Source of the DNA: Squalus acanthias | Lineage: Eukaryota | NCBI GenBank assembly: GCA_030390025.1 | Contig: CM059432.1 | Location: forward strand, 20,586,001-20,650,000 | DNA: 64,000 nucleotides | Direction of reading: 5' to 3' | Shown: positions 3,185 to 60,980 of the stretch, one piece after another | Position numbering within the stretch: position 1 is the first letter of the stretch | Layout: every line of letters begins with the position of its first letter | The notes under the pieces: model-generated | The model's input: the letters and a program-made list of their open reading frames with translations, nothing else | Told to the model about the DNA's origin: nothing | The model's database searches: none | Made by a program: the position numbers and the translations under genes

Positions 3185-4189
3185 ATACCAATCCGAAACT
3201 AGGGTCCTAAATCGAAACAAAGGAAACTATGAAGGTATGAGGAGTGAGTTGGCTATGATAGATTGGGGAGCTTCATTAAAAGGCATGATGGTGGATAGGC
3301 AATGGCTAACATTTAAGGAACGAATGCATGAATTGCAACAGTTATACATTCCTTTCTGGCGCAAAAACACAAAAGGAAAAGTGGCCCAACCATGGCTAAC
3401 AAATGAAATTAAGGATAGTATTAGATCCAAAGAGGAGTCATATAAAGTTGCCAGAAAAAGTAGCAAGCCTGAGGATTGGGAGCAGTTTAGAATTCAGCAA
3501 AAAAGGATCAAGAATTGATTAAGAGGGGAAAAATAGAGTATGAGAGTAAACTTGCAAGGAACATAAAAGCGGACTGTAAAAGCTTCTACAAGTATGTAAA
3601 AAGAAAAAGATTAGAGAAGACAAATGTAGGTCAGAAACGGGAGAATTTATAATGGGGAACAAGGAAATGGAAGAGCAATTAAACAAATACTTTGGTTCTG
3701 TCTACACGGAAGAGGACACAAATAACTTCCCAGAAATGCTAGGGAACCAAGGGTCTAGTGAGAAGGAGGAATTAAAGGAAATTAGTATTAGTAAAAAAAT
3801 AGTACTGGAGAAATTAATGGGACTGAAAGCTGATAAATCCCCAAGGCCTGATAATCTGCATCCCAGATGATTGTCATCTTCCAAAATTCTACAGATTATG
3901 GAACAGTTCCTGCAGATTGGAGGGTGGCAAATGTAACCTCACTATTTAAAAAAGGAGGGTGAGAGAAAACAGGGAACTGCAGTAGTAGGGAAATTGCTAG
4001 AGTCTGTTATAAAGGATGTGATAACAGGACACTTAGAAAATATCAATGGGATAAGACAAAGTCAACATGGATTTATGAAAGGGAAATAGTGTTTGACAAA
4101 CCTACTGGAGTTTTTTGAGGATGTAACTGGTAGAATAAGGGAGAACCAGTGGTTGTGGTGTATTTGGATTTTCAGAAGGCCTTTGATAA
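3185..4189 (+). mobile_element. CR1 LINE ORF2 fragment (outer copy, 5' part)
   Basis: KVAQPWLT...EDWEQFR, KADKSP.PD.LHPR and YLDFQKAFD, with stops. Breaks at 'gcctttgataa' and resumes at ~12735. Confidence 0.9.
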
Positions 4190-5514
4190 CAGCAAACAAC
4201 AAACATATATTCCTCTGGGGCATAAAAACCCAAAAGGAAAAGTGATCCAACCATGGCTAACAAAAGAAATTAAAGCTAGTATTAAGTCAAAGGAGGAAAC
4301 TTATAAAGTTGCCAGAAAAAGCGGTCAGCCTGAGGATTGGGATCTTTTTAGAAATCAGCAAAGGGGGACCAAGAAATTGATAAAGAAAGGGAAAATGGAA
4401 TACGAACACAAACTAGCGAAATATATAAAAACGGATTGTAAAAGCTTCTATAGGTATGTGAAAAGGAAAAGACTGGTGAAGGTAAATGGAGGTCCTTTAC
4501 AGTCAGAGACGGTAGAATTTATAATGGGGAATGAGGAAATGGCTTGGAAATTAAATAAATACTTTGTTTCTGTCTTCACGGAGGAAGACACAAAAAAGCT
4601 CCCAGAAATACGAGAAAACCAAGGATGTGACGAGAATGAGGAACTTAAAGAAATTATTATTAGTAAAAAAACAGTACTAGCAAAATTAATGGGACTAAAA
4701 GTCGATAAATCCCAAGGACCGGATGACCTACATCCTAGGGTTTTGAAAGAGGTGGCCATTGGAATAGTGGACGCATTGGTTGTCATCTTCCAAAATTCTA
4801 TAGATTCTGGAACGGTTCCTGCAGATTGGACGATAGCAAATGTAACCCCACTATTTAAGAAAGGAGGGACAGAGAAAACAGGGAACTACAGACCTGTTAG
4901 CCTCACATCAGTAGTTGGGAAAATGCTGGAATCTATTATAAAGGATGCAATAACTGGGCACTTAGAAACTAATAGTAAGATTGGGCAGAGTCAACATGGA
5001 TTTATGAAAGGGAAATCCTGTTTGACAAATCTATTGTCGTTCTTTGAGGATGTAACTAGTGGAGTAGACAAAGGGGAACTGGTAGATGTGGTGTATCTGG
5101 ATTTTCAGAAGGCCTTCGATAAGGTCCCACACAAGAGGTTGGTGAACAAAATTAGGGCACATGGAATTGGGGGTAATATACTAGCATGGATTGAGAATTG
5201 GTTAACAGACAGAAAACAAAGAGTAGGGATAAACGGGTCTTTTTCAGGATGGCAGGCTGTGACTAGTGGGGTACCGCAAGGATCGGTGCTTGGGCCCCAG
5301 CTATTCACAATCTATATCAATGATTTGGATGAGGGGACTAAATGTAACATTTCCAAATTTGCTGATGATACAAAGCTAGGTGGCAGTGTCAGTTGTGAAG
5401 AGGCTTCAAGGGGATCTTGACAGGCTCAGTGAGTGGGCAAGAACATGGCAGATGGAATATAATGTGGATAAATGTGAAGTTATCCACTTTGGTAGAAAAA
5501 ACAGAAAGGCAGAG
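4190..5514 (+). mobile_element. CR1 LINE ORF2 (inner copy, 5' part; RT domain)
   Basis: ORF 4149..5420 contains [36 protein letters not shown] and FADD. Interrupted by the ERV in the codons for GRKNRKAE|YFLNGE. Confidence 0.95.
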
Positions 5515-5558
5515 TGTAGGAGTAAATTTATTATAGGGTTTTAATAAGAAATGTAAAA

Positions 5559-5654
5559 TTAAAGAATGTGCCGTAAGAAGTAAATTCGTAAATAGAAAAT
5601 GGTTTCTTAAAGAATGTGCCGTAAGAAGTAAATTCGTAAATAGAAAATGGTTTT
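5559..5654 (+). repeat. 48-bp tandem duplication in LTR U3
   Basis: ttaaagaatgtgccgtaagaagtaaattcgtaaatagaaaatggttt(c) x2, present in both LTRs. Confidence 0.9.
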
Positions 5655-5881
5655 GCTGACAGTGCAATGAGTAATGTCTGTGGTCAACATTGAGGCCCAC
5701 CAAGGAGGCCACCAAGGCAATAATAGTACAACGATTACACAATCACCGCATGACTGGCTAGACTGGCTAGTCCGAATGGACAAATGTGAGGCAAACCGCT
5801 ATGCTTGTAGTTTCGGTAGGGAAGTAACATTTGAACCTAACGTACATATTATAATTAGAAACCTGTTGCTAAGGCTATGTG

Positions 5882-5903
5882 ATTGGATGAATAATGTATA
5901 AAA
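5882..5903 (+). promoter_or_regulatory. LTR promoter: inverted CCAAT (ATTGG) and TATA box
   Basis: ATTGG at 5882-5886 and TATAAAA at 5897-5903, about 90 bp upstream of AATAAA at 5991-5996. Confidence 0.65.
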
Positions 5904-6051
5904 GGAATCTCATACCGCTGTAATTTCGAGAAGAAGTAGTCACTAAGCTGAGGGGTTTATGACATCTTCTCCCAAAGATCTTTGAACATTAATAAACTGT
6001 TTGCTTGTACCTATGACACAGAATGGAGTGAAATAATTTCTCCACAGCAAA

Positions 6052-6069
6052 TGGCGTCACGAACAGGAT
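6052..6069 (+). promoter_or_regulatory. Primer-binding site complementary to tRNA-Ser(CGA)
   Basis: TGGCGTCACGAACAGGAT is the reverse complement of ...AUCCUGUUCGUGACG-CCA, the 3' end of a vertebrate tRNA-Ser(CGA) as recalled. It lies 2 nt after the LTR end. Confidence 0.85.
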
Positions 6070-6676
6070 ACTTCGGAGCTGAAAACCGCCTGTACCAGTG
6101 AACAGGGCGAGTAGTCAAATCTTTGACCTGCCCAGAAATTGGGTCACTCGGAAGGGGGGTGTGTTCGGCAACGCAGTATCAAACGAATCTGGTGTCTGTG
6201 ACGGGTGAGAAACAGTTTATTAAAACCTAGGTGGCACATGAAGTGTTTGTAATGTATTAATAGTGGTTAAGATGATTGAAGCCTGATGTGTTATTTCGGA
6301 ATATAAATGTCTCGAGGACCCATGCTGAGCCGAAATTAAGAGGGCTATTGGGCCCCACGTGACGGCCAGAGGTAGTTGGGAATCCGAGACAGACAAAGAA
6401 TTTGTAAGAACCTCTCTGCTGCGTTGCATTGCGGGATCTATTGGATGGTATTACGTGAAGAATTGTGATAATGTATTAATGGCTACAAGTGAAACATCAC
6501 TGCTGAGACAAGTGAAATAATCACCTCTGAGACAAGTGAAACCTTCACCTCTGAGAGCAAGATAGTTACAAGTCAGGCCGCCATCATACAAGTGGTGGAT
6601 GATAGGCAGAACCTCTGAGAACGAGTTGGTAGGGCGGACCAGAATGCGGTAAACTAGTGACAAAGAATAATACATT

Positions 6677-7942
6677 ATGGCGGCGGGCGAGGAACCAGAT
6701 TGGGGCCCGCCAGGATCCATGAGTCGGCTCTACGCCGAGGACCAAAAGGGTTTTATTGATAAAATGAAGAAGGATGGATGGGATCCACTAGGAAAACCCC
6801 TGGCGCAACGGGAGTGGTGGGAGAAGCAGAAACAAAAGAAAACTAGAAAGGCAGGAGTAATTTTAATACATCAGTTGATAATGATAACAAAAGGGGTTAA
6901 GACACAAACCAGTAAGCTGGAAGAACAAGGAAAGAGAATAGCCGAATTAGAAAGTATAATAGAACGGATGGAATTGACAAATAGAGGGAATAGAAATGGT
7001 GAGGATAAAGAAAGGCCCCCACCGTATGCCTCGGCCCCAATCGAAAACGAAGGGGACGTTCCGGTAGTGCCGATGGCACCCGTAATACGATACCCAGCGG
7101 CAGCCAACAGTCGATATCGGGCTTTCACGCCTCTTGAAAAACAAGCCGTTCTCAAAGATTTGGGAACCCTCAAACCCCGTAGTCAGAACGCCGAAGTTCT
7201 GGAAAAATCTAGAGGGAATGTGGGACATCCATGATTGACAGTGTAAGGATATCCATCAGTTAGTTAGGGCATCATGCCCAGCCGACAAATGGAGAAATGT
7301 AAACCCCGCTGTAGGCATGCAGGATGGAGCACGGGCAGATGCAGTGGCTGCGGGGGTCGCACAGGCGGCACAACAAGCAGCATCTGGGCCTTTTAAAATC
7401 GCAGTAGAAGCAGCACTTGGGGGTCCTACTATAAATTGGGGAAAAATCCAATCAGTAAAATAATCAAAGGGAGTATCTAGTAGTGAGTATGGAGAATGAT
7501 TGTTTGATGCTTATTGTGAATAGTCAGGGCAAGCAAATCCACAGCGAACAGACCAATCCTTTATCCAGCTGTTTAAGGACGGACTCTCATCGGCACACCA
7601 AACCATCCTAGAGTTGGGAGTGTTGGTCGCCCCTACATACGATCTCGCGGTTCAATGGGCATGTCAGATAGATGCTAAGGGACCTGAACCCACAGGAAAG
7701 GGAGGTGTAAAAATCAAACAGGAGAAGGTAACAGCAGAGGGGGGGCATCGCAACCGTACAAGAGGATTCAGGGGAGCTGTTATACTTGTGGAAAAGTGGG
7801 ACATATGGCGAAGGATTGCAGGAGTGGAAAGAAAGGGGGATGTGACTATTGTGGTAAGCTAGGACACCAGAGTCACAACTGCTGGCAGAAGAAAGGAGAC
7901 GTGGACCAGACACAGGGCACTTATTTTAGTCCGGAGGAATAG
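6677..7942 (+). pseudogene. gag: ERV gag (disrupted)
   Basis: ORF 6677..7234 with PPPY late domain. After a frameshift, an MHR-like NWGKIQSVK*SKGVSSSEYGE*L. Two CCHC knuckles, CYTCGKVGHMAKDC and CDYCGKLGHQSHNC (~7778-7882). TAG at 7940-7942. Confidence 0.9.
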
Positions 7943-8120
7943 AAGGGACTTTATGGAGTACCTCAAGTCAAAGGGGAAGAGTCAATGACGGGAGGCGGCC
8001 CCAGTAAAGGAGGCTCGGATAACCGAGTCTACGTTGCAGCATTATTAGGGGGCCAATCGTGTGAAATGCTAGTTGATACAGGAGCATCAGTATCTTTAAC
8101 TGATTTGCCCCGTCCGACAA
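7943..8120 (+). pseudogene. pro: ERV aspartic protease N-terminal part
   Basis: In frame after the TAG: ...DNRVYVAALLGGQSCEMLVDTGASVSLTDLP with the DTGA active site. Homology is lost downstream. Confidence 0.85.
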
Positions 8121-8809
8121 ACCAAAGATAAAGAAGGAAAAGATCTAATTTGCAGGCGAACCAATCTGAAACTCAGCTTAGACAAAAAAAAGGGATTTGG
8201 AAAGCCAGGAAAGCTGCTGAGACACCTATGTAAAGAAAAAAGAAAGAAATTTAAAGTTTTACCGACATGGAAGTTATTAATGTCTGTGCCGAGACAAATA
8301 AACACAAGATTTGTTGAGTGAAAGGAATCTTAAAAGGAATGCTGTGATCTAAGTTTGAGTGAAAGAGTGTGTTTAAGAGTGATAGTTTCACTGACTGTGA
8401 ATGTTTAAGGAGTTGCAGTATTTCTTTTGTCTGAAAGTCTGTCATTTTTGTTTTAGCTCCACCCACTTTTTTGTACAGAGAGCTAAAAGCTGTTTAACCC
8501 TTTGGAGACCTGTCTTGAATGACGGACAAGTATGTTGTTTTAAGTTTGTTAATTGTTTTACAAAAGATAAGCTTCGGCCTTGAAGTCACAGTTGCCAATG
8601 TGCCTGGAAGAAAATGAATTTGAATGTTTACAAGGCATGGGTAATTGTTTCTTTGTTAATGTGGCTATGGTTTCTTTCTTTTCCAAGTGATACTGGTTAG
8701 TTTAAAAAAAAATTGATCTGGATTCATTGTGGCCACGGTGAAATTCTGGTTGGTGTAAATTTGTGTAGACCACATTGAATAAGATATTTAATGGTCTGAA
8801 ACCAGACTT

Positions 8810-9060
8810 TAAAATATTTACAATCTTGGATACAGAACGGGTTCTGGTCCATACCATTGGCAGAGGAATCACAAGGGAAATTCGCCTATACTGTCAGGGA
8901 TAGACAGTATACATGAACCAGGGTCCCGCAGGGGTTCCACAAGAATCCAAATATATTCCACCATGTACTGAGTCAAGCCTTAGACGAGTTAGACCTATCA
9001 AAGTATCAGAGTGTCCTACTCCAATGTGTCAATGACATAATGATTGCATCAGAGGATCCG
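8810..9060 (+). pseudogene. pol: ERV reverse transcriptase remnant
   Basis: LD-IQNGFWSIPLAEESQGKFAYTVRDRQYT*TRVPQGFHKNPNIFHH...VLLQCVNDIMIASED (YVDD decayed to CVND). Flanked by AT-rich sequence with no recognisable RNase H or integrase. Confidence 0.85.
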
Positions 9061-9656
9061 ATCAGGAGAGTTTTTTTTCATTTACGTGAAATAACGCAAT
9101 TGCGTGCATCTGACAATGTTTCGCTCCGCCTTCTTAAAAAAAAAACCCTGCAAAGGAGTTAACCCTTTCCACTGACAGCTATTTAAGTTATAGAAATGAA
9201 ATTGAACATTGACAAAACCTGTCAGTTCAACAGTACTGCTGTTTGGATTTCGGGATAATTTTGAAATGACAAAATGAACTCAGGCACTATATATTGGGTT
9301 ACTTTTGGGAAATAAAAGATCCTCTAAAATAATGATAAATAAAGGTGTTAATAACTTGGACCAAGTGAGAATGTTTGATCTATGTTTTCAATCTTAAATA
9401 TTGTACTGGACAGTAAAGTTCTTCCAGGACTCATGAATGAGATATGAATGGTAATTAATAGGATGTGTAAAATGGAGAAAGGAAGTGATTGAGGGTGAGA
9501 TAGAAACAGGAGAATTACACCACCAATTGAGAATTTTCCAAACTTTCTAGTGAAAGTCAGGAAAGAGTAGCTAAGAATAGTAAATTGATAGCTTTCTCTT
9601 GGAGACATTTGTGTCCCTGCCTATAATGAACTTTTTAAGAAAACTGAATTTGATAG

Positions 9657-10061
9657 CCTGGCCACTATCAAAGACATCGGGACCATGCAGAGGAAGATGA
9701 ACAAAGACCTCCAGACAATCTTTTGATAAGATACCTGAAAGCCCGAGAAAGGCACATGTGGCATGATGTGGAGATACCGATATGAGTGTGCAAATGTGAT
9801 TTGTTACATGTGAGGCAGTTGCCATCCGGGAATGTATGGTGAATCTGCACTGAAGAACGGGTCTCAGACATGCTCAGTTACTTGACAACAGCAAACCATG
9901 AGGTGGTTGATGTGGTTCAGGAGAGCGAGACAACCTTTAAAGCATTGACACATACTCCATCGAGAAACTATCTAATTAATGAAACAATCAGAATAGAGTT
10001 AAATACACTGGTACCTGTTAGAGGGATTGAAATTGAAGTTGAAGTGGAGAGTTACAATTGA
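9657..10061 (+). pseudogene. Unassigned ~135-codon frame between pol and env (candidate accessory gene)
   Basis: One frame broken only by two TGA codons (9783, 9840; CGA->TGA plausible): PGHYQRHRDHAEEDEQRPPDNLLIRYLKARERHMWHDVEIPI*VCKCDLLHV...IEIEVEVESYN. Confidence 0.4.
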
Positions 10062-10440
10062 GGGCTAAGGAGAAATCATGTTTAGTAAGAATTATCCACA
10101 AGATGGATATGAGTCAAAAGACATCTGCAGAATCTTTTAAGTCCATGATTTGTTGATTAGATGTTAAACTGTAATGTCGCTTGAAATGATTGTAAGACTG
10201 AATTTATAGTGTATTTGATATATGTAACCTATGTAGTAAGATACATAAGCCAATTGGGTACTCATGCCTATGACTAACCAGCACCAACAAATTAATTGAG
10301 CACACCGAAAGAGAAGATCCAAAGCAATATAGAGGAGACCCCAGGCGGGGTAACATCAAGAAAGATAGAAGAAACAGAGGATACCCCAGGCGGGGCAGAA
10401 TTGGAACACCGGAACAATGAATTGAATTTGAGTAAGGGAA

Positions 10441-11290
10441 TTGGTCTGGGCATCATGCATCATTCTGATTTGCTTCACATTGGGTTGGAGTAAATGCGAG
10501 CAGAAATATGAATTAAAGGTGACCAGGAGTGGGTACGGTGGTGCAACCTTCACGTATGGGACGTGGAATCTCGGTACAATTCCAAACATGACCAGTGGGG
10601 GGCCATGGAAGGGTAAAATCATGATAATGAATAACATATGGAGTAGGTATGAAGCCAATAATAACACTTACTTCATTGGGGTATATCGTACCCTTTGTAC
10701 ATCACTGCCTAAACCTCAAGGAACACCCAGCCTATCGTTATAAACGAGAAATTAATGAGGCTGAAAGATACTTCGTGATCTATCTACCCCCATACGGAGT
10801 TGCGAGAGCTATTAAAAAGATACAGGTTGTTGGCAGAGGTTTTAGAACAGGTTGGGAATGATACAGCAGAAGCTCTAATAGATATTAACGCCGAGATGGT
10901 AGCGATAAGGACAGTGACGCTACAGAACCGAATGACATTTGATTACCTCCTAGCAGAAAAGGGGGAACGTGTGCATTGATTGGGACAGAGTGCTGTACAT
11001 ACATTCCTGACAGTTCAGAAAATATAACTAATTTGGCAGAACACATACAGGAGGAAGTAAAGAAATTAAAACAACCTCCGGCATCCACCCTTTGGGGCTG
11101 GGCAACTGGATGGTTGGGATCACTCGGGACATCAGTAGTACAAGGATTGATTTTGTTCTTTGTTATAATATTAATGATGTATGGTCTGGTCCTATTGTTA
11201 AAATATTGTTGCGCTCAAATGTCACGGCCTGCTGTAAGTTTCATGATGGTTAATCAAGTGACACCCAGAGAGAGAGATGTATGGATATGA
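10441..11290 (+). pseudogene. env: ERV env (frameshifted; short SU, gamma-type TM)
   Basis: Signal-like VWASCIILICFTLG, furin site RYKR, ISD-like LQNRMTFDYLLA, CX6CC (CALIGTECC) and hydrophobic TM LILFFVIILMMYGLVLLL. Confidence 0.92.
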
Positions 11291-11413
11291 GTCCCTATAC
11301 AAGAATGCCACAGTCTGACTGATGGACTGTGAGCTCCTGGAATGTAAACATATCTACTTACATTACCAGAAATCCGTATGATGCTGGTTCCCTGTCACAA
11401 AGGAGTTTTGATC

Positions 11414-11432
11414 AGGGACCAACAGGAGGAAT
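11414..11432 (+). promoter_or_regulatory. Polypurine tract
   Basis: agggaccaacaggaggaat immediately 5' of the 3' LTR. Confidence 0.65.
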
Positions 11433-11967
11433 TGTAGGAGTAAATTTATTATAGGGTTTTAATAAGAAATGTAAAATTAAAGAATGTGCCGTAAGAAGTA
11501 AATTAGTAAATAGAAAATGGTTTCTTAAAGAATGTGCCGTAAGAAGTAAATTCGTAAATAGAAAATGGTTTCGCTGACAGTGCGATGAGTAATGTCTGTG
11601 GTCAACATTGAGGCCCACCAAGGAGGCCACCAAGGCAATAATAGTACAACGATTACACAATCACCGCATGACTGGCTAGACTGGCTAGTCCGAATGGACA
11701 AATGTGAGGCAAACCGCTATGCTTGTAGTTTCGGTAGGGAAGTAACATTTGAACCTAACGTACATATTATAATTAGAAATCTGTTGCTAAGGCTATGTGA
11801 TTGGATGAATAATGTATAAAAGGAATCTCATACCGCTGTAATTTCGAGAAGAAGTAGTCACTAAGCTGAGGGGTTTATTACATCTTCTCCCAAAGATCTT
11901 TGAACATTAATAAACTGTTTGATTGTACCTATGACACAGAATGGAGTGAAATAATTTCTCCACAACA
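11433..11967 (+). repeat. ERV 3' LTR (535 bp)
   Basis: TGTAGG...CCACAACA, with AATAAA at 11909-11914, followed by TSD CAGAG. Confidence 0.97.
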
Positions 11968-12734
11968 CAGAGTATTTCCTAAATGGTGAAAGATTGGGGA
12001 ATGCAGATGCTCAAAGGGACCTGGGTGTCCTTGTACATGAGTCACTGAAAGTGAATGTGCAGGTGCAGCAAGCCATTAGGAAGGCAAATGGCATGCTGGC
12101 CTTCATTATAAGAGGATTTGAGTACAGGAGTAAAGAAGTCTTACTCCAATTATATAGGGCCTTGGTGAGACCACACCTGGAGTATTGTGTACAATTTTGG
12201 TCGCCTTACCTAAGGAAGGATATACTTCCCATAGAGGGAGTACAACGAAGGTTCACGAGATTGATTCCTGGGATGGTGGGACTGTCGTATGAGAAGAGAT
12301 TGAGTAAACTAGGCCTGTATTCTCTTGAATTCAGAAGAATGAGAGGAGATCTCATTGAAGCATACAAAATTATTACAGGGCTTGATAGGATGGATGCTGG
12401 GAGAATGTTTCCCTTGGCTGGGGAGTCTAGAACCAGGGGCAACTGCCTCAAGATAAAGGGTAGGCCATTCAGTACTGAGATGAGAAGAAATTTCTTCACA
12501 CAGAGGGTGGTGAATCTTTGAAATTCTCTACCCCAGATGGCTGTGGAAGCTCAGTCATTGGGTATATTCAAAACAGAAGTCGATAGATTTCTGACTAGTA
12601 AGGGCATCAAGGGATATGGCGATAAGGCCGGTGAATGGAGTTGAGGCAGAAGATCAGCCATGATCTCATTGAATGGCGAAGCAGGCTCGAAGGGCCAAAT
12701 GGCCTACTCCTGCTCCTATTTCTTATGTTCTTAT
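11968..12734 (+). mobile_element. CR1 LINE 3' end (inner copy)
   Basis: RDLGV...LVRPHLEYCVQFWSP...RRMRGDLIE, a CR1 3' UTR and a (ttcttatg)n tail. Confidence 0.95.
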
Positions 12735-33769: not shown

Positions 33770-36700
33770 TAGGGTGACCATATTTTCTGAACTGAATCCG
33801 GGGACACACAGGGTGGGAGCACAGCAATGTAGCCAGGATGGAAAATGTAGGGTGCACAGCGTAGCGAGGCAAAATTTTTCAGCAGCCTATATTTTAAGAG
33901 TTGCACATATACACCACAAATGCGAAACAAATGTGCATATAATTAATGTGGATGTGACGTCACAGTATTGAAGTGCATTGAGTGTCACTCAGTTGTAACT
34001 AACCGCTACGAAACAAAATAATAAGAATGAAACCGGACGGACCACCCGGCATCGACCTCGGCACCGGCTACGGACACGGCAACGGCACACCCAGCCCAGT
34101 CAACCCTGCAAAGTCCTCCTCACCAACATCTGGGGACTTGTGCCAAAATTGGGAGAGATGTCCCACAGACTAGTCAAGCAACAGCCTGACATAGTCATAC
34201 TCACAGAATCATACCTTTCAGCCAATGTCCCAAAATCCTCCATCACCATCCCTGAGTATGTCCTGTCCCACCAGCAGGACAGACCCACCAGGGGTGGTGG
34301 CACAGTAGTATACAGTCGGGAAGGAGTGGCCCTGGAAGTCCTCAACATTGACTCCGGACCCCATGAAGTCTCATGGCTTCAGGTCAAGCATGGGCAAGGA
34401 AAACTCATACTAATTACTACCTACCGCCCTCCCTCAGCTGATGAATCAGTACTCCTCCATGTTGAACATCACTTGGAAGAAGCACTGAGAGTAGCAAGGG
34501 CACAGAATGTACTCTGGGTGGGGGACTTCAATGTCCATCACCAAGAGTGGCTCGGTAGAACCACTACTGACCGAGCTGGCCGAGTCCTGAAGGACATAAC
34601 TACCAGTCTGGGCCTGCGACAGGTGGTGAGTGAACCAACAAGAGGGAAAAACCTACTTGACCTCGTCCTCACCAATCTACCTGTCACAGATGCATCTGTC
34701 CATGACAGCATTGGCAGCAGTGACCACCGCACAGTCATTGTGGAGACGAAGTCCCGTCTTCACACTGAGAACACCCTCCATCGTGTTGTGTGGCACTACC
34801 ACCGTGCTAAATGGGATAGATTCAGAACAGATCTAGCAGCTCAAAACTGGGCATCCATGAGGCGCTGTGGGCCATCAGCAGCAGCAGAATTGTATTCCAC
34901 CACAATCTCATGGCCCGGCATATCCCTCACTCTACCATTACCACCAAGCCAGGGGACCAACCATGGTTCAACAACGAGTGTAGAAGAGCATGCCAGGAGC
35001 AGCACCAGGCGTACCTAAAAATGAGGTGCCAACCTGGGGAAGCTGCAACACAGGACAACATGCATGCTAAAAAGTGGAAGCAGTATGCTATAGACAGGGC
35101 TAAGTGATCCCACAATCAACGGATCAGATCAAAGCTCTGCAGTCCTGCCACATCCAGTCGTGAGTGGTGGTGGACCATTAAACAACTAACAGGAGGAGGA
35201 GGCTCCAAGAATATCCCCATCCTCAATGATGGTGGAGCCCAGCACGTGAGTGCAAAAGACAAGGCTGAAGCGTTAACTTCAGCCAGAAGTGCCAAGTGGA
35301 TGATCTTCCGAGGTCCTCACCATCACAGAAGCCATTCTTCAGCCAATTCAATTCACTCCACGTGATATCAAGAAACGGCTGAGCGCACTGGATACAGCAA
35401 AGGCTATGGGCACCGACAACATCACAGCTATTGTGCTGAAGACTTGTGCTCCAGCCTCTAGCCAAGCTGTTCCAGTACAGCTACAACACTGGCATCTATC
35501 CGACAATGTGGAAAACTGCCCAGGTATGTCCTGTCCACAAAAAGCAGGACAAATCCAACCCGGCCAATTACCACCCCATCAGTCTACTCTCAATCATCAG
35601 CAAAGTGATGGAAGGTGTCTTCGACAGTGCTATCAAGCGGCACTTACTCACCAATAACCTGCTCACTGATGCCCAGTTTGGCTTCCATCACGACCACTCG
35701 GCTCCCGACCTCATTACAGCCTTGGTCGAAACATGGACAAAGGAGCTGAATTCCAGAGGTGAGTTGAGAGTGACTGCCCTTGACATCAAGGCAGCATTTG
35801 ACCAAGTCTGGCATCAAGGAGCCCTAGTAAAACTGAAGTCAGTGGGAATCAGGGGGAAAACGCTCCACTGGCTGGAGTCACACCTAGCACAAAGGAAGCT
35901 GGTTGTGGTGGTTGAAGGTCAATCATCACAGCCCCAGGACATCGCTGCAGGAGTTCCTCAGGGCAGTGTCCTAGGCCCAACCATCTTCAGCTGCTTCATC
36001 AATGACCTTCTCTCCAACATAAGGTCAGAAATGGGGATGTTCGCTGATGACTGCACAGTGTTCAGCGCCATTCGCAACTCTACAGATAATGAAGCAGTCC
36101 ATGCCCACATGCAACAAGACCTGGACGATGTTCAGGCTTGGGCTGATAAGTGGCAGGTAACATTCGCGCCACAGAAGTGCCAGGCAATGACTATCTCCAA
36201 CAAGCGAGAGTCTAACCATCTCCCCTTGACATTCAACGGTATTACCATCGTTGAATCCCCCACCATCAACATCCTGGGGGTCACCATTGACCAGAAACTT
36301 AACTGGACCAGCCACATAAATACTGTGGCTATAAGAGCAGGTCAGAGGCTGGGTATTCTGCGGCGAGTGTCTCATCTCCTGACTCCCCAAAGCCTTTCCA
36401 CCATCTACAAGGCACAAGTAAGGAGTGTGATGGAATACTCTCCAGTTGCCTGGATGAGTGCAGCTCCAACAACACTCAAGAAGCTCGACACCATCCAGGA
36501 CAAAGCAGCCCGCTTGATTGGCACCCCATCCACCACCTTAAACATTCACTCCCTCCACCACCGGCGTACCGTGGCTGCAGTGTGTACCATCTACAAGATG
36601 CACTGCAGCAACTCGCCAAGGCTTCTTCGGCAGCACCTCCCAAACCCACAACTTCTTCCACCTAGAAGGACAAGGGCAGCAGGCGCATGGGAACACCACC

Positions 36701-37659
36701 ACCTCCAAGTTCCCCTGCAAGTCACACACCATCCTGACTTAGAAGTATATGGCCGATCCTTCATCGTCGCTGGGTCAAAATCCTGGAACTCCCTACCTAA
36801 CAGCACTGTGGGAGTACCTTCACCACACGGACTGCAGCGGTTCAAGAAGGTGGCTCACCACCACCTTCTGAAGGGCAACTAGGGATGGGCAATAAATGCT
36901 GGCATTGCCAGCGATGCCCACATCCCATAAACGAATTTAAAAAAAGACGCACTTTTTTGACAACGCCATTTTTACTTTACACCGAATCTCAAATCTTGCG
37001 TGTGTTCAACGCCATATGTCATTCAGTCAGTGTCTTAGGGCAACTGCAATAGTGCTGTAACATCTACTCGTCCCCGATTACCCCAACTTTTAATTTCTCA
37101 ATTTAAAATCTGTTCCAGACTGAGATTTTCCATATAAGGTGTGAAACACCCTCTGTCTCAGAAGGTTTCAGTAACTTCTTCCCGGTGGGAGAATTTAGAG
37201 CTTAGTCATTAAAATAAAACCATGATTTGATCTGATCTTTGCACCATGCTGCTCTCTGAGGTAAAGTAAATCCACTCACCCACCAGCCCTCACTGCGCCC
37301 TTGGCTTCTGCTCCGATTTTTTGGCCGCTGCTCATGTTCAAGGATCCGCCCTCCTGCCAGTCACTATTGGCTGATACAGCTTCCTCCTGATAGGATGAAA
37401 CCTAACCCACAGGTCCCACCTATGCTGCCAGCAGCAGCCAATCCCAGGAGGGCATCGCTCTGACAAACGAATGCCGCGCCCTGATTGGTCTAGAAGATCT
37501 GAGGCGTGATGAAAAATGACGTTTCAGCGGTCAATGAATATGGCTCTATTTGGGGACGAGTTTCCTGAACCGGGGACTCTTCCGGGGACACTGTTTGCCC
37601 GGGGACACAGTACCTCATCCGGGACTGTCCCCGGAAAACGGGGACGTCTGGTCGGTCTA
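33770..37659. mobile_element. Non-autonomous hAT (Blackjack-type) element split by a LINE
   Basis: Left TAGGGTGACCA, right ...ggggacgtctggtcggtcta, subterminal ccggggac repeats, and 8-bp TSD gtgtacat/gtgtacct. Confidence 0.75.
34028..36945 (+). mobile_element. LINE family B (APE endonuclease + RT; CR1/Jockey group), near-complete ORF2
   Basis: ORF 34140..35018 (LTESYL, YRPP, GDFN, LDLVL, SDH) and ORF 35446..36882 ([26 protein letters not shown]), ending in an A-rich tail. Confidence 0.92.
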
Positions 37660-49400: not shown

Positions 49401-51292
49401 CAGTCATAGAGTCATAGAGTCATACAGCACAGAAAGAGGCCCTTCGGCCCATCGTGTCCGCACCGGCCATCAAGTCCTGTCTATTCTAATCCCATTTTCC
49501 AGCACTTGGTCTGTAGCCTTGTATGCTATGATGTTTCAAGTGCTCATCTAAATGCTTCTTGAATGTTGTGAGGTTTCCTGCCTCTACCACCCTTTCAGGC
49601 AGTGAGTTCCAGGTTCCAACCACCCTCTGGGTGAAAAGGTTTTTCCTCAAATCCCCTCTAAACCTCCTGCCCCTTACCTTGAAACTATGCCCCCTGGTTA
49701 TTGACCCCTCTACTAAGGGGAAAAGTTCCTTTCTATCTACCCTATCTATGCCCCTTATAATTTTGTACACCTCAATCAGGTCCCCCCTCAGTCTTCTCTG
49801 CTCTAAGGAAAACAACCCCAGCCTGTCCAGTCTCTCTTCATAGCTGAAGCACTCCAGCCCAGGTAACATCCTGGTGAATCTCCTTTGCACCCTCTCCAAT
49901 GCAATCACATCCCTCCTATAGTGACCAGAACTGCACACAGTATTCCAGCTGTGGCCTAACTAGTGTTTTGTACAGCTCCATCATAACCTCCCTGCTCTTA
50001 TATTCTATGCCTCGGCTAATGAAGGCAAGTATCCCATATGCCTTTTTAACCACCTTATCTACCTGTCCTGCTGCCTTCAGGGATCTATGTACATGCACAA
50101 CAAGGTCCCTCTGATCCTCTGTCCTTCCTAGGGTCCTACCATTCATTGTGTATTCCCTTGCCTTGTTTGTCCTCCCAAAATGCATCACCTCACACTTTTC
50201 AGGGTTAAATTCCATTTGCCACTGTTCTGCCCATCTAACCATCCCGTCTATATCGTCCTGTAGCCTGAGGCTTCCCTCCTCGCTATTTACCACTCCACCA
50301 ATTTTCGTGTGATCTGCAAACTTACTGATCATACCTCCTACATTCATATCTAAATCATTAATGTACACTACAAACAGCAAAGGACCCAGCATCGACCCCT
50401 GCGGTACACCACTGGACACGGGCTTCCAGTCACAAAAACAACCTTCGACCATCACCCTCTGCCTCCTGCCACTAAGCCAATTTTGGATCCAATGTGCCAA
50501 GTTGCCCTGGATCCCATGGGCTCTTACCTTCTTGACCAGTCTCCCATGTGGGACTTTGTCAAATGCCTTACTGAAGTCCATGTAGACTACATCAACTGCA
50601 CTACCCTCATCCACACACCTAGTCACTCCCTCGAAAAATTCAATCAAATTGGTCAGACATGATCTCCCCCTGACAAAGCCATGCTGACTATCCCTGATTA
50701 ATCCCTGCCTCTCCAAGTGGAGACTAATTCTGTCCCTCAGAATTTTTTCCAATAATTTCCCTACCACTGATGTTAGGCTCACTGGCCTGTAATTCCCTGG
50801 TTTATCCCTACTACCCTTCTTGAACAATGGTACTACGTTAGCTGTTCTCCAGTCCTCTGGCACATCCCCTGTGGCCAGAGAGGTTCTGAAAATTTGTGTC
50901 AGAGCCCCTGCAATCTCCTCCCTTGCCTCACACAGCAGCCTGGGATACATCCCGTCAGGGCCTGGGGATTTATCTATTCTTAAGCCTGCTAAAACCGCTA
51001 GTACCTCCTCCCTCTCTATATTAATTTGTTCAAGTATATCACAATCCCCCTGCCTGATTTCTATGCCTACATCACCCTTCTCCATAGTGAATACAGATGC
51101 AAAATATTCATTTAAAACCTCACCTACATCTTCCGGCTCTACACACAGATTGCCACTTTAGTCCCTAATGGGCCCTACTCTATCCCTGGTTATCCTCTTG
51201 CCCTTAATATACTTATAAAACACCTTGGGATTTTCCTTTATTTTGCCCGCCAGTGTTTTTTCATGCCCCCTCTTCACTCTCCTAATTTCTTT
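49400..51292 (-). mobile_element. CR1 LINE (second subfamily) RT and 3' end, antisense insertion
   Basis: ORFs 49916..51085 and 49486..49938 with RT motifs, and a (tatgactc)n tail. Confidence 0.93.
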
Positions 51293-52056
51293 TGTGTTTG
51301 ACAAAATTATTAGAGTTTTTTGAGGATGTAACTAGCAGGGGAGATAAAGGGGAACCTGTGGATGTAGTATATTTGGATTTCCAAAAGGCATTCGACAAGG
51401 TGCCACATGAAAGGTTATTGCACAAGATTAGGGTTCATGGGGTTGGGGGTAATATAATAGCATGGATAGCGGATTGATTAATGGACAGAAAACAGAGAGT
51501 AGGGATAAACAGATCTTTTTCAGGTTGGCAGGCTGTAACTAGTGGGATGCTGCAAGGATCAGTGTTGGGGCCTCAGCTATTCACAATCTATATTAATGAC
51601 CTAGATGAAGGGACTGAGTGTAATGTAGCCAAGTTTGCTGATGATACAAAGCTAGGTGGGACAGTAAGCTGTGAGGAGAACACAAAGAGTCTGCAAAGGG
51701 ATATAGATAGATTAAGTGAGTGGGCAGTAAGGTGGCAGATGGAGTATAATGTAGGGAAATGTGAGGTTATTCACTTTGGTAGGAAGAATAGAAAAACAGA
51801 ATATTTTTTAAATGGTGAGAAACTTTCAAATGTTGGTGTTCAGAGAGATTTGGGTGTCCTCGTGCAAGAAACACAGAAAGCTAGCATGCAGGTACAGCAA
51901 GCAATAAGGAAGCCAAATGTCATGTTGGCCTTTATTGCAAGGGGGTTGGAATATAAGAGTAAGGAAGTCTTGTTACAATTGTACAGGGCCTTGGTGAGAC
52001 CACACCTGGAGTACTGTGCACAGTTTTGGTCTCCTTATCTAAGGAAGGGTATACTT

Positions 52057-53340
52057 GAAATAACAACAGAAAATGCTGGAAACATTCAGCAGGCCAGGCA
52101 GCATACGTGGAGAGAGAAACAGAGTTAACGTTTCAGGTCTGTGACCCTTCGTCAGAACTGGTAAAAGTTGGAGATGTAACAGGTTTTAAGCAGGTGCAGA
52201 GGCAGGAAAAGGGGGGGGGGTGGGGGGGAGGAAGGAATTTAAGACACAATGGCCCAAAAATTAGTCCCGCGACGCGAGAGTACGCACTGTGTACTCTCGC
52301 GTATTCTGTCTCCAAATGCCGGTTTTCTGCATGCACTGCGCATGCGCTGAAAACCGGCACTTGGTGAATGGGAAAGGGGGCGGGTCCTCGGTGCACCGCG
52401 TGCGCGCTACAGGCTGCGCGCACGCTGTGCACTTAGTGCTTTGGACGCGCAGGTAAGTACGGAAGATTTTAGAAATGAAAAAAGGAGGAGTAAGACCCAC
52501 TTTTAACATGTTAAGTAGTGAATTAAGTATTATTTTGAATTTTTTTTAACAGGTATATCTTTTTTAGAGACTTTAAAGACAGGTAAGTTTATTTTTATAA
52601 CTTTTTAAAAGTTTTTAAATTTTTTCAAAAATTTAATTTTTTATTTAAAATGGTTAATTTATTTAACTATACTTATTTTATTAATGTGATGGTTTTTTTT
52701 TTAAATTTAATTGAGCTTTAGCTGTTATTTTGGGGGTGTGTAAGATTCATAGCTTTCACAGCACTTATGTGAAACTTATGAATGGAAGATGGTGTGCTGC
52801 CATTGGCTCTAACTGAGTCACGTGATCCCACAGCTCGCACGAATTCACTACGCCGGTGGGATACGAAAGCACTGCACAGCAGCTGTCCAGAACATGAAGT
52901 TCGTGCGAGCTGGAACTGAAAAAGCCAACGCGGAGTGAGAGATCGCGGGGAAGCCTTACCCCCGCGTCAACACTCAGTCTTTAATTTCTGGGCCAATCTG
53001 TGCTAGGATTGAACTCAGGAGAGATAAAATGTTGCAAATGGGGATGGCAGAATCATCAACAGCTGCCGCCTGAAAAAATGGAGGGGTTATAGTTTGAAAT
53101 TGTTGAATTCAATGTTGAGTCCAGAAGGATATAAAGTGCCTAATCGAAATATGAGGTGCTGTTCCTCGAGCTTACGTTGTGCTTCATTGGAACAGTGTAA
53201 AAGGCCGAGGACAGAGAGGTCAGAGTGGGAATGGAGCGGAGAATTAAAGTGACAGGCGACCGGAATCTCGGGGTCACCCTTACGAACTGAACGGAAGTGT
53301 TCCGCAAAGCGGTCACCCATTCTGCGTTTGGTCTCCCCAC
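52057..53340 (-). mobile_element. Penelope-like 3' fragment in CR1, itself split by a MITE
   Basis: ORF 53087..53359 GETKRRMGDRFAEHFRSV. pLTR with hammerhead motif at 52123-52160 (CUGACGA...GAAA). Confidence 0.85.
52251..52994. mobile_element. Harbinger-type MITE
   Basis: TIRs ggcccaaaaatta / taatttctgggcc, with TSD AAT. Confidence 0.75.
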
Positions 53341-59600: not shown

Positions 59601-59954
59601 CAACCGCCTGCTTTTCACTATGGACGTACAATCCCTCTACACTTCCATCCCCCACCAGGATGGCCTGAGGGCGCTCCGCTTCTTCCTTGAACAGAGGCCC
59701 AACCAGTCCCCATCCACCACCACCCTCCTCCGCCTGGCTGAACTTGTTCTCACATTGAACAACTTCTCCTTTGACTCCACTCATTTCCTCCAAATCAAAG
59801 GTGTTGCTATGGGTACCCGTATGGGTCCTAGCTATGCCTGCCATTTTGTGGGATATGTGGAACACTCTTTGTTCCAGTCCTACTTGGGTCCCCTCCCTCA
59901 CCTCTTTTTCCGATTGATGAATGTATCAGTGCCATCTCCTGCTCTCGCCCTGAA

Positions 59955-60980
59955 TTGGAAAATGTCATTCACTTTGCTTCCAATTTCCACCCTTCCCTCA
60001 CCTTCACATGGTCCATCTCCGACTCTTCCCTTCCCTTCTTTGACTTCTCTGTCTCCATCTCTGGGGATAGGTTATTGACAAACATTCACTACAAGCCCAC
60101 TGACTCCCACAGCTACCTGGACTACACTTCCTCCCACCCCGCCTCCTGTAAGGACTCTATTCCATTCTCCCAGTTTCTCCATCTCCGCCGCATCTGCTCT
60201 GACGATGCCACCTTCCATACCAGTGCTTCCGACATGTCTTCCTTTTCCCTCAACCGAGGATTCCCCTCTACTGTGGTTGACATGGCCCTCGACCGTGTCC
60301 GTTCTATCTCCCGCACTTCTGCCCTCACCCCTACCCCTCCCTCCCGGAACCATGATAGAGATCCCCTTGTCCTCACCTTTCACCCCACCAGCCTCCACAT
60401 TCAACGAACCATCCTCCGCCATTTCCGCCACCTCCAGCGTGATCCCACCACCAAACGCATCTTCCCCTCACCTCCCCTTTCAGCATTCCGTAGGGACCGC
60501 TCCCTCTGCGACACCCTAGTCCACTCCTCTACCACCCCCAGCACCCCTTCCCCTTCGCCCGGCACCTTCCCGTGCAAGCGCAGGAGATGCAACACATGCC
60601 CTTATACCTCCCCCCTTCCCACTGTCCAGGGCCCCAAACACCCCTTCCAGGTGAAACAGCGATTTACTTGTACTTCTTGCAATTTAGTATACTGTATTCG
60701 CTGCTCACGATGTGGTCTCCTCTACATTGGGGAGACCAAACGCAGATTGGGTGACCGCTTTGCAGAACACCTCCGTTCAGTCCGTAAGGTGGACCCCAAG
60801 CTCCCGGTGGCCTGTCACTTTAATTCACCGCTTCACTCCCACTCAGACCTCACCGTCCTTGGCCTCTTGCATTGTTCCATGGAATCTCAGCGTAAGCTCG
60901 AGGAACAGCACCTCATCTTTCGATTAGGCACTCTACAGCCCTATGGACTCAACATAGAGTTCAACAATTTCAGATCATAA
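59955..60980 (+). pseudogene. Penelope RT thumb + GIY-YIG endonuclease (frameshifted from 59620 ORF)
   Basis: YKPTD, HP, CKRRRCNTC linker, and LVYCIRC..C.LLYIGET.RRL..RF.EH. Confidence 0.9.

What the first reader, a model, noticed from the sequence alone, without database searches (positions are those of the whole stretch)
5515..11967. Endogenous retrovirus with a mosaic of class-defining traits - candidate undescribed lineage in a cartilaginous fish
Seen in sequence: 5-bp TSD, Ser PBS, Gag with PPPY and TWO CCHC knuckles, RT signature NGFWSIPL...PQGFH with a YVDD-like site, and an Env TM with ISD and CX6CC. Established: NGFW/PQGF/YVDD is the foamy/class-III-like RT pattern and 5-bp TSDs are typical of class III ERVs, but foamy Gag lacks zinc knuckles. 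Gammaretroviral Gag has one knuckle, and CX6CC+ISD is gamma-type Env. Lokiretroviruses were described with paramyxo/pneumovirus-F-like Env instead. Inference: a basal (SnRV-like, ERV-S-like or loki-related) backbone carrying a gamma-type envelope, which does not fit the standard genera cleanly.
Basis: partly seen in the sequence, partly recalled or inferred. Interest (0 to 1): 0.85.

Follow-up and report, generated by a model that had tools for sequence, protein, structure and literature searches.

The report
Broken shark retrovirus, snakehead-related group
This is a broken, recombined copy of an endogenous retrovirus that likely belongs to a snakehead-retrovirus-related group already sampled in sharks and likely spread by borrowing enzymes from relatives; most of its 'mixed' traits are shared with published shark elements, although its sister families carry two unrelated envelope genes.

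Summary
The provirus is real: 535-bp LTRs (7 mismatches), 5-bp TSD, tRNA-Ser(CGA) PBS, Gag with PPPY and two knuckles, an RT remnant and a gamma-type Env remnant. All genes are broken; RNase H and integrase are missing. Its RT falls outside class I and the foamy clade, in an unresolved grade with snakehead retrovirus (clade Huo). Published shark ERVs already show the trait mix. Elephant-shark CmiERV lineage I has a Ser PBS, in-frame TGA, the same RT motifs and a TM about 70% identical, but one knuckle. Whale-shark Rh_ty_ERV4 shows two knuckles and the same junction. TSD length varies (4-6 bp) in the family, so it is no class marker. The true mosaic lies within the lineage: Gag and Env come from subfamily A, and the RT remnant from subfamily B, which carries an unrelated non-gamma Env. 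The copy belongs to a non-autonomous group, likely mobilised in trans. No formal description of this two-knuckle sub-lineage turned up in my searches; Repbase and Dfam were unavailable. The scan has no earlier look-alike of this Gag, though it noted other ERVs in this genome. Verdict: new member of a known kind.

The parts
5510..5514 (+). Left target-site duplication (5 bp)
   Evidence: identical to 11968-11972
5515..6049 (+). 5' LTR, 535 bp; TATA-like box at 5897, AATAAA at 5991
6052..6069 (+). Primer-binding site for tRNA-Ser(CGA)
6677..7988 (+). gag, broken (frameshift near 7190-7200, stops at 7461, 7497 and 7521, further frame changes); PPPY 7016-7027; ends at an in-frame TGA with a CGG context
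7778..7882 (+). Two CCHC zinc knuckles (7778-7819, 7841-7882)
   Evidence: 34 of 40 gag-bearing relatives have two
7989..8128 (+). Start of the protease (DTG motif), then cut off; holds a predicted 6-bp stem 8 nt after the gag stop
8129..8768 (+). Segment with almost no protein match, shared with deleted sibling elements and deleted subfamily-B copies
8769..9057 (+). RT remnant of subfamily-B origin, broken (frame change near 8830, stop at 8914, altered catalytic site)
9058..10473 (+). Segment without protein match that stands in place of RNase H, integrase and the 5' part of env; shared with many other copies
10474..11290 (+). env remnant, gamma-type, broken: SU piece, furin site 10736-10747, ISD 10920-10943, CX6CC 10970-10996, membrane span
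11423..11432 (+). Polypurine tract
11433..11967 (+). 3' LTR, 535 bp
11968..11972 (+). Right target-site duplication (5 bp)
4134..5514 (+). Host LINE RT region into which the provirus inserted; it continues after 11972

Best explanation
This is a broken, recombined provirus that lacks RNase H and integrase, likely belongs to the snakehead-retrovirus-related ('Huo', class III-like) group already sampled in sharks, and was likely copied by enzymes borrowed from relatives. Shown: its LTR, leader, gag, protease start and env remnant match subfamily A, while its RT remnant matches subfamily B. The same broken middle part sits at many unrelated sites. Inferred for the parent viruses: Ser-tRNA priming; Gag-Pol made by readthrough of an in-frame stop; a two-knuckle NC (probably the ancestral state, with SnRV having lost one); an SU-TM disulfide-linked gamma-type Env; and an integrase that leaves 4-6-bp duplications. 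Inferred for this copy: template switching between co-packaged A and B genomes, deletions, mobilisation in trans, insertion into a LINE, then neutral decay.
For: RT tree, 55 rows: the window groups with subfamily B (100/100), the family is one side of a branch (85/94), and it lies outside the class I clade (100/100) and the foamy-like clade (100/100). Family plus gamma-like rows is rejected (p 1e-7); a clade of family, SnRV and the other non-class-I, non-foamy rows is not rejected (p 0.09). The SnRV anchor P0036 matches the SnRV record in PMC1224870 supplement 6 by eye. By-eye counts against published shark ERVs: Rh_ty_ERV4 protease start 21 of 29 and RT core 30 of 44 identical, listed in the Huo block; CmiERV-I RT core 28 of 44 and TM 44 of 63. 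Recombination: the RT remnant is 92-94% identical to 6 of 6 B copies and 67-72% to 5 of 5 A copies; 5' gag is 91-97% identical to A with no match to B. Spread of a broken form: the RT stop is shared by 4 of 4 siblings tested, and 40 of 40 scored candidates match the non-coding middle at 90-100%. Readthrough: 28 of 37 loci with a protease motif have an in-frame TGA 25-26 codons upstream, followed by CGG in 14 and CTA in 10. These are the type II contexts of PMC13517186.
Against: The tree backbone is unresolved. The family is not SnRV's sister (39-44% identity over RT-connection, against 36-41% to class I rows), so 'Huo' rests partly on the label order in a published figure read as text. Whole Pol scores best to MLV-type RT-RNase H (371 bits against 220 for foamy), while RT alone scores best to a foamy RT (154 against 135). 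The tree holds no named ERV-L, HERV-S or lokiretrovirus reference. The env of Rh_ty_ERV4 could not be seen. The stem after the stop shows no covariation and overlaps a conserved protease motif. Mobilisation in trans and readthrough are untested.
Confidence: 0.82

Rival explanations
1. The family is a separate deep, genus-level retroviral lineage (two knuckles, Ser PBS, readthrough) that earlier Pol trees lumped into Huo; its sister subfamilies have exchanged unrelated Env types.
For: It forms its own branch with shark and minnow proteins and is not SnRV's sister. SnRV and CmiERV-I have one knuckle, and ERV3/ERV4 none. Gamma-type TM was found in 21 of 30 loci with A/C-type RT and 0 of 12 full B-type loci; an unrelated Env was found in 10 of 12 B loci and 0 of 30 A/C loci.
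Against: A member (Rh_ty_ERV4) is already published inside the Huo block. A joint clade with SnRV is not rejected. Knuckle number is labile (PMC1224870 passages). This rival differs from the best reading mainly in rank.
Confidence: 0.13
2. It is a divergent class I (epsilon/gamma-like) ERV, which would explain two knuckles, readthrough and gamma-type Env without any mosaic.
For: Whole Pol scores best to MLV/XMRV RT-RNase H. Epsilon viruses have two knuckles. Many TSDs are 4 bp.
Against: It lies outside the 100/100 class I clade, which includes shark epsilon-like rows. Family plus gamma-like rows is rejected. No Gag_p30 hit on a relative's Gag. RT motifs match SnRV and CmiERV-I.
Confidence: 0.03
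3. It is a foamy-like or lokiretrovirus backbone that captured a knuckled Gag and a gamma Env.
For: RT alone scores best to a foamy RT structure.
Against: The genome's own foamy-like elements (confirmed against foamy Pol structures) form a separate long branch, 32-36% identical. Pol follows gag in frame after a stop. Loki Env is F-like, while this Env is gamma-type.
Confidence: 0.02

Closest known systems
Whale-shark Rh_ty_ERV4, clade Huo (Xu et al. 2018, PMC6001957; supplements 2 and 7)
   Same: By eye: the tail of one knuckle plus a second whole knuckle, an in-frame TGA-CGG junction, protease start 21 of 29 and RT core 30 of 44 identical.
   Different: A different host and subfamily. Its env, LTR and PBS were not visible to me. 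The paper's passages that I saw give no trait description.
Elephant-shark CmiERV lineage I (Han 2015, PMC4422223; supplement 1)
   Same: By eye: TG...CA LTRs, a Ser PBS identical to that of many relatives here, in-frame TGA after gag, the NGFWSIPL/PQGFH RT motifs, and a TM with ISD and CX6CC, 44 of 63 identical. Clusters with SnRV in that paper.
   Different: One knuckle, a longer coiled-coil Gag and a divergent protease. It is listed apart from Rh_ty_ERV4 within the Huo block.
Snakehead retrovirus (SnRV)
   Same: In-frame gag-pol stop and the same RT motif set. Its single knuckle and the stretch after it resemble this family's second knuckle (by eye).
   Different: One knuckle, a UAG-GGC junction, 39-44% RT-region identity and a longer Pol. 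Arg PBS (recalled). Its Env was not examined.
XtERV-S (Yedavalli et al. 2021, PMC8278194)
   Same: Class III-like backbone with a class I-type TM, Ser PBS, 5-bp TSD and an in-frame TGA.
   Different: No Cys-His box, YIDD, a dUTPase-like segment, and ERV-L-related Gag and Pol.
ERV3/ERV-L and ERV4 (Chong et al. 2014, PMC4299795)
   Same: 5-bp TSD typical; outside class I and class II.
   Different: Both lack Gag zinc fingers. That paper leaves SnRV- and Ovex1-related ERVs, some with a zinc finger, unclassified.

Membership tests
Clade Huo / SnRV-related ERVs | Pol outside class I and the foamy clade | tested here: met
Clade Huo / SnRV-related ERVs | Pol forms a clade with SnRV and class III ERVs | tested here: inconclusive
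   Backbone unresolved; joint clade not rejected, p 0.09; no named ERV-L or HERV-S row
Clade Huo / SnRV-related ERVs | Same lineage as a published Huo member (Rh_ty_ERV4) | tested here: met
   By-eye identity of protease, junction, knuckles and RT; label order in the S2 figure text; not computed
Gammaretrovirus / class I | RT inside the class I clade | tested here: not met
Gammaretrovirus / class I | Gag p30 capsid family | tested here: not met
   Only zf-CCHC hits on a relative's Gag
Gamma-type Env | ISD plus CX6CC in TM, CXXC in SU, furin site | tested here: met
   Window TM; CWVC, furin site, ISD and CX6CC in 3 of 3 relatives' env frames; hits to syncytin and MLV TM structures
Spumaretrovirinae / foamy-like ERVs | No Gag knuckles; RT in the foamy clade | tested here: not met
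   Two knuckles; separate branch
ERV3 (ERV-L, ERV-S) and ERV4 | Zinc fingers absent | tested here: not met
ERV3 (ERV-L, ERV-S) and ERV4 | 5-bp TSD | tested here: inconclusive
   5 bp here, but 4, 5 and 6 bp in relatives
Lokiretrovirus | Env related to paramyxo/pneumovirus F | tested here: not met
   This element's Env is gamma-type; definition
Lokiretrovirus | RT sister to all other retroviruses | not testable with these tools
   No loki reference sequence could be obtained
Named Repbase/Dfam family | Match to a library entry | not testable with these tools
   Libraries not held

The most novel reading that the evidence does not exclude
Sharks and some teleosts carry a formally undescribed, genus-level retroviral lineage with a two-knuckle Gag and Ser priming. 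Its sister subfamilies have swapped between a gamma-type Env and an unrelated, possibly F-like Env, use three different canonical readthrough signals (UGA-CGG, UGA-CUA, UAG-GUA) ahead of one conserved stem, and still recombine with each other, as this copy shows.
Probability: 0.4. Interest if true: 0.55.

Novelty: new member of a known kind. Interest (0 to 1): 0.32.

Why it matters
The copy itself is an ordinary dead provirus. The family is a useful sample of the least-described part of the retroviral tree. It shows that knuckle number, TSD length and Env type, all used as class markers, vary among close relatives. It offers an Env exchange between sister subfamilies whose RTs are about 65-70% identical. 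Its gag-pol junctions carry type II readthrough hexamers that the passages I read of a 2026 review do not list for any retrovirus, and a reporter assay can test them.

Tried and rejected
The viral-contig scan for RT relatives found none. A search of the genome with Pfam Fusion_gly found nothing, but ran in a reduced mode in which no control rang, so it is uninformative. No named SnRV, ERV-L, HERV-S, foamy or loki protein came back from three homologue searches; SnRV was identified through a paper supplement instead. The original SnRV paper is not held. Long records in the PMC6001957 supplement are cut, and a positive-control motif was not found, so the env of Rh_ty_ERV4 is unseen; bioRxiv supplements, which may hold this family's Env, were not seen. 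Sequencing runs: no RNA holder is on record, and laid contigs could not show whether this insertion is fixed or polymorphic, because the flank is a high-copy LINE. Fold of the subfamily-B Env: the single-sequence model was useless (pLDDT 32), the alignment-based job had not finished, and Pfam and PDB sequence searches gave nothing significant. The Atlas gave only weak look-alikes among fusion proteins (recognition below threshold). Its fold is therefore open. The stem after the stop has no covariation support, and a synonymous-site check had only 6 usable sites. A first junction census selected on the stem motif and was replaced by an unbiased one. A PBS tally failed through a faulty pattern and was not used. 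Rfam and tRNA scans of the window were blank. I rejected the 5-bp TSD as a class marker and the 'foamy-type RT motif' as foamy-specific.
Full report
Observation. The element runs from 5515 to 11967 with two 535-bp LTRs that differ at 7 sites (K2P 0.013), an exact 5-bp TSD and an interrupted LINE frame on either side. The PBS matches a host tRNA-Ser(CGA) gene. PPPY, two CCHC knuckles, a protease start, an RT remnant and a TM with ISD and CX6CC are present. Every gene is broken. The RT covers only about 90 codons, its catalytic site reads C-V-N-D, and RNase H, integrase and most of SU are absent. LTR divergence gives about 30 million years at the shark rate assumed in PMC4422223 and about 3 million at the mammalian rate quoted there; the rate is uncertain.

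Family in the genome. The 3.7-Gb genome gave 196 gag matches and 150 RT matches, both lower bounds. I fetched 56 loci, chosen as the closest gag hits or for long open frames, so they are not a random sample. Two knuckles were found in 34 of 40 gag-bearing loci, and YVDD in 40 of 46 catalytic-motif matches. Of 37 loci with a protease motif, 28 have an in-frame TGA 25-26 codons upstream; 19 loci had no motif. Relatives have the order PR-RT-tether-RNase H-IN, with no dUTPase hit, and an Env with CWVC, furin site, ISD and CX6CC. TSDs are not fixed: 4 bp in 6, 5 bp in 4 and 6 bp in 1 of 11 proviruses with an exact match, and 5 bp in 5 and 4 bp in 2 of 7 solo-like LTRs, one of the two ambiguous. The PBS varies among Ser-CGA, Ser-AGA and Ser-TGA.

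The real mosaic. Segment by segment, the leader (82-96%), gag (87-97%), protease start and env remnant match subfamily A. The RT remnant is 92-94% identical to subfamily B and only 67-72% to A. Subfamilies A and C carry the gamma-type TM (21 of 30 loci, none with the other Env). Full B copies carry an unrelated Env without ISD or CX6CC (10 of 12, none gamma-type). The copy is thus a recombinant of two sister subfamilies with different envelopes. The RT stop is shared by 4 of 4 siblings tested, two gag stops are private and one is shared with one sibling, and gag differences among siblings are mostly non-synonymous. All 40 scored candidates match the non-coding middle. I infer that a defective genome was copied in trans and decayed further after insertion. 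That this happened by template switching and helper enzymes follows from general retroviral biology and was not tested.

Placement. The nearest proteins come from sharks (Mustelus, Heterodontus), then minnow, eel, herring, frogs and coelacanth; the Heterodontus protein also has two knuckles. P0036 matches, by eye, the SnRV Pol printed in PMC1224870 supplement 6, and six own-genome foamy-like loci supplied foamy anchors. The careful RT-connection tree used 55 of 85 rows; near-duplicates and surplus class I and gypsy rows were dropped for run time. In it the family is one branch (85/94), outside class I (100/100) and the foamy-like clade (100/100), in an unresolved grade with SnRV. Family plus gamma-like rows is rejected (p 1e-7). 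A clade with SnRV and the other basal rows is not rejected, but not shown either (p 0.09). Against a close tie to SnRV: identity over this region is 39-44%, little above the 36-41% to class I rows, and whole Pol scores best to MLV-type structures.

What is in print. Han 2015 (PMC4422223; first half of the text and supplement 1 part 1 read) places CmiERV lineage I with SnRV. By eye its sequence has a Ser PBS, one knuckle, an in-frame TGA, the same RT motifs (28 of 44 core residues) and a TM 44 of 63 identical to the window's. Xu et al. 2018 (PMC6001957; passages, supplement 2, part of supplement 7) define clade Huo. Their Rh_ty_ERV4 shows, by eye, two knuckles, TGA-CGG, a protease start 21 of 29 and an RT core 30 of 44 identical, and is listed in the Huo block. 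bioRxiv 2021.11.23.469661 (passages, sections 7-8) reports gamma-type Env on class III SnRV-related Pol and in six cartilaginous fish; its supplements were not seen. PMC8278194 (parts 1-2 of 8 and passages) describes XtERV-S, a class III element with a class I TM, Ser PBS and 5-bp TSD but no knuckle. PMC1224870 (passages) gives SnRV one knuckle and treats knuckle loss as recurrent. PMC4299795 (passages) gives ERV3/ERV4 no knuckles, notes that TSD length is not consistent within classes, and leaves SnRV-related ERVs unclassified. PMC11089739 (passages) finds that most cartilaginous-fish ERV RTs are clade III. PMC7947760 (passages) defines the loki Env. PMC9967133, PMC3758190, PMC5753468 and PMC12440569 were seen as passages only. 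Searches found no paper naming a two-knuckle Huo lineage; the library lacks most subscription papers, Repbase and Dfam.

Mechanism of the parent viruses (inferred). They would be simple retroviruses primed by tRNA-Ser, with Gag-Pol made by stop readthrough and a covalently linked gamma-type Env in subfamilies A and C. The junction hexamers are UGACGG (A), UGACUA (C) and UAGGUA (B; 2 in frame, 3 in alignment 101). PMC13517186 (passages) lists these as type II and type III signals and names other contexts for the retroviruses it covers. A 6-bp stem follows an 8-nt spacer in 96% of cells, but without covariation and overlapping a protease motif, so it is only a lead.

Earlier scan notes. No look-alike of this Gag was found. 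Notes on other pieces of this genome describe SnRV-clade and class I elements with F-like Env and pol-less families. They prompted the look at subfamily B's Env and supplied the loki paper; I did not check their claims beyond that.

Verdict. This is a new member of a known kind: a defective recombinant of a shark Huo-type lineage already present in published data sets but, as far as my searches reach, not described trait by trait. Interest 0.32; novel case 0.4 likely, 0.55 if true.

Noticed in passing
L051-L056, L061-L066: Subfamily B, the source of the window's RT remnant, carries an Env with a furin site and a long Cys-rich second subunit, without ISD or CX6CC and with no similarity to the gamma-type TM (10 of 12 loci). 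Its fold is untested.
   Followed up: partly
window 7986-8064 and alignment A2: Three subfamilies use three different canonical readthrough hexamers (UGACGG, UGACUA, UAGGUA), each followed by an 8-nt spacer and the same 6-bp GC stem (96% of cells paired, no covariation).
   Followed up: partly
window 6052-6069; L011-L066: The PBS switches among three Ser isoacceptors (CGA, AGA, TGA) within the family, even between close siblings. The CGA pattern has one exact tRNA-gene match in the genome, against 75 and 51 for the other two.
   Followed up: partly
L011-L066, L076-L105: TSD length is mixed: 4 bp in 6, 5 bp in 4 and 6 bp in 1 of the 11 proviruses with an exact TSD (22 of 56 loci gave an LTR pair); 5 bp in 5 and 4 bp in 2 of 7 solo-like LTRs (30 loci examined).
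   Followed up: partly
L094, L096, L097: LTRs preceded by a polypurine tract and followed by a PBS suggest tandem proviruses sharing an LTR.
   Followed up: no
window 8112-10400: This middle part is covered far more deeply than gag in genomic contigs, and a joint skipping about 6896-8116 occurs in 4 of 4 runs. This hints at a more abundant, more deleted non-autonomous group.
   Followed up: partly
L011-L050: Some related subfamilies include copies with LTR pairs over 99% identical and long open frames, so parts of the lineage were active more recently than the window copy.
   Followed up: no
L070-L075: The genome holds a family of foamy-like ERVs (49 matches to the foamy protease family; best hits foamy Pol structures).
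   Followed up: partly
window 33999-36882, 49916-52128, 59832-60980: Other retroelement frames in the window: a LINE endonuclease plus RT, further LINE RT pieces and a weak GIY-YIG hit (Penelope-like by inference).
   Followed up: no
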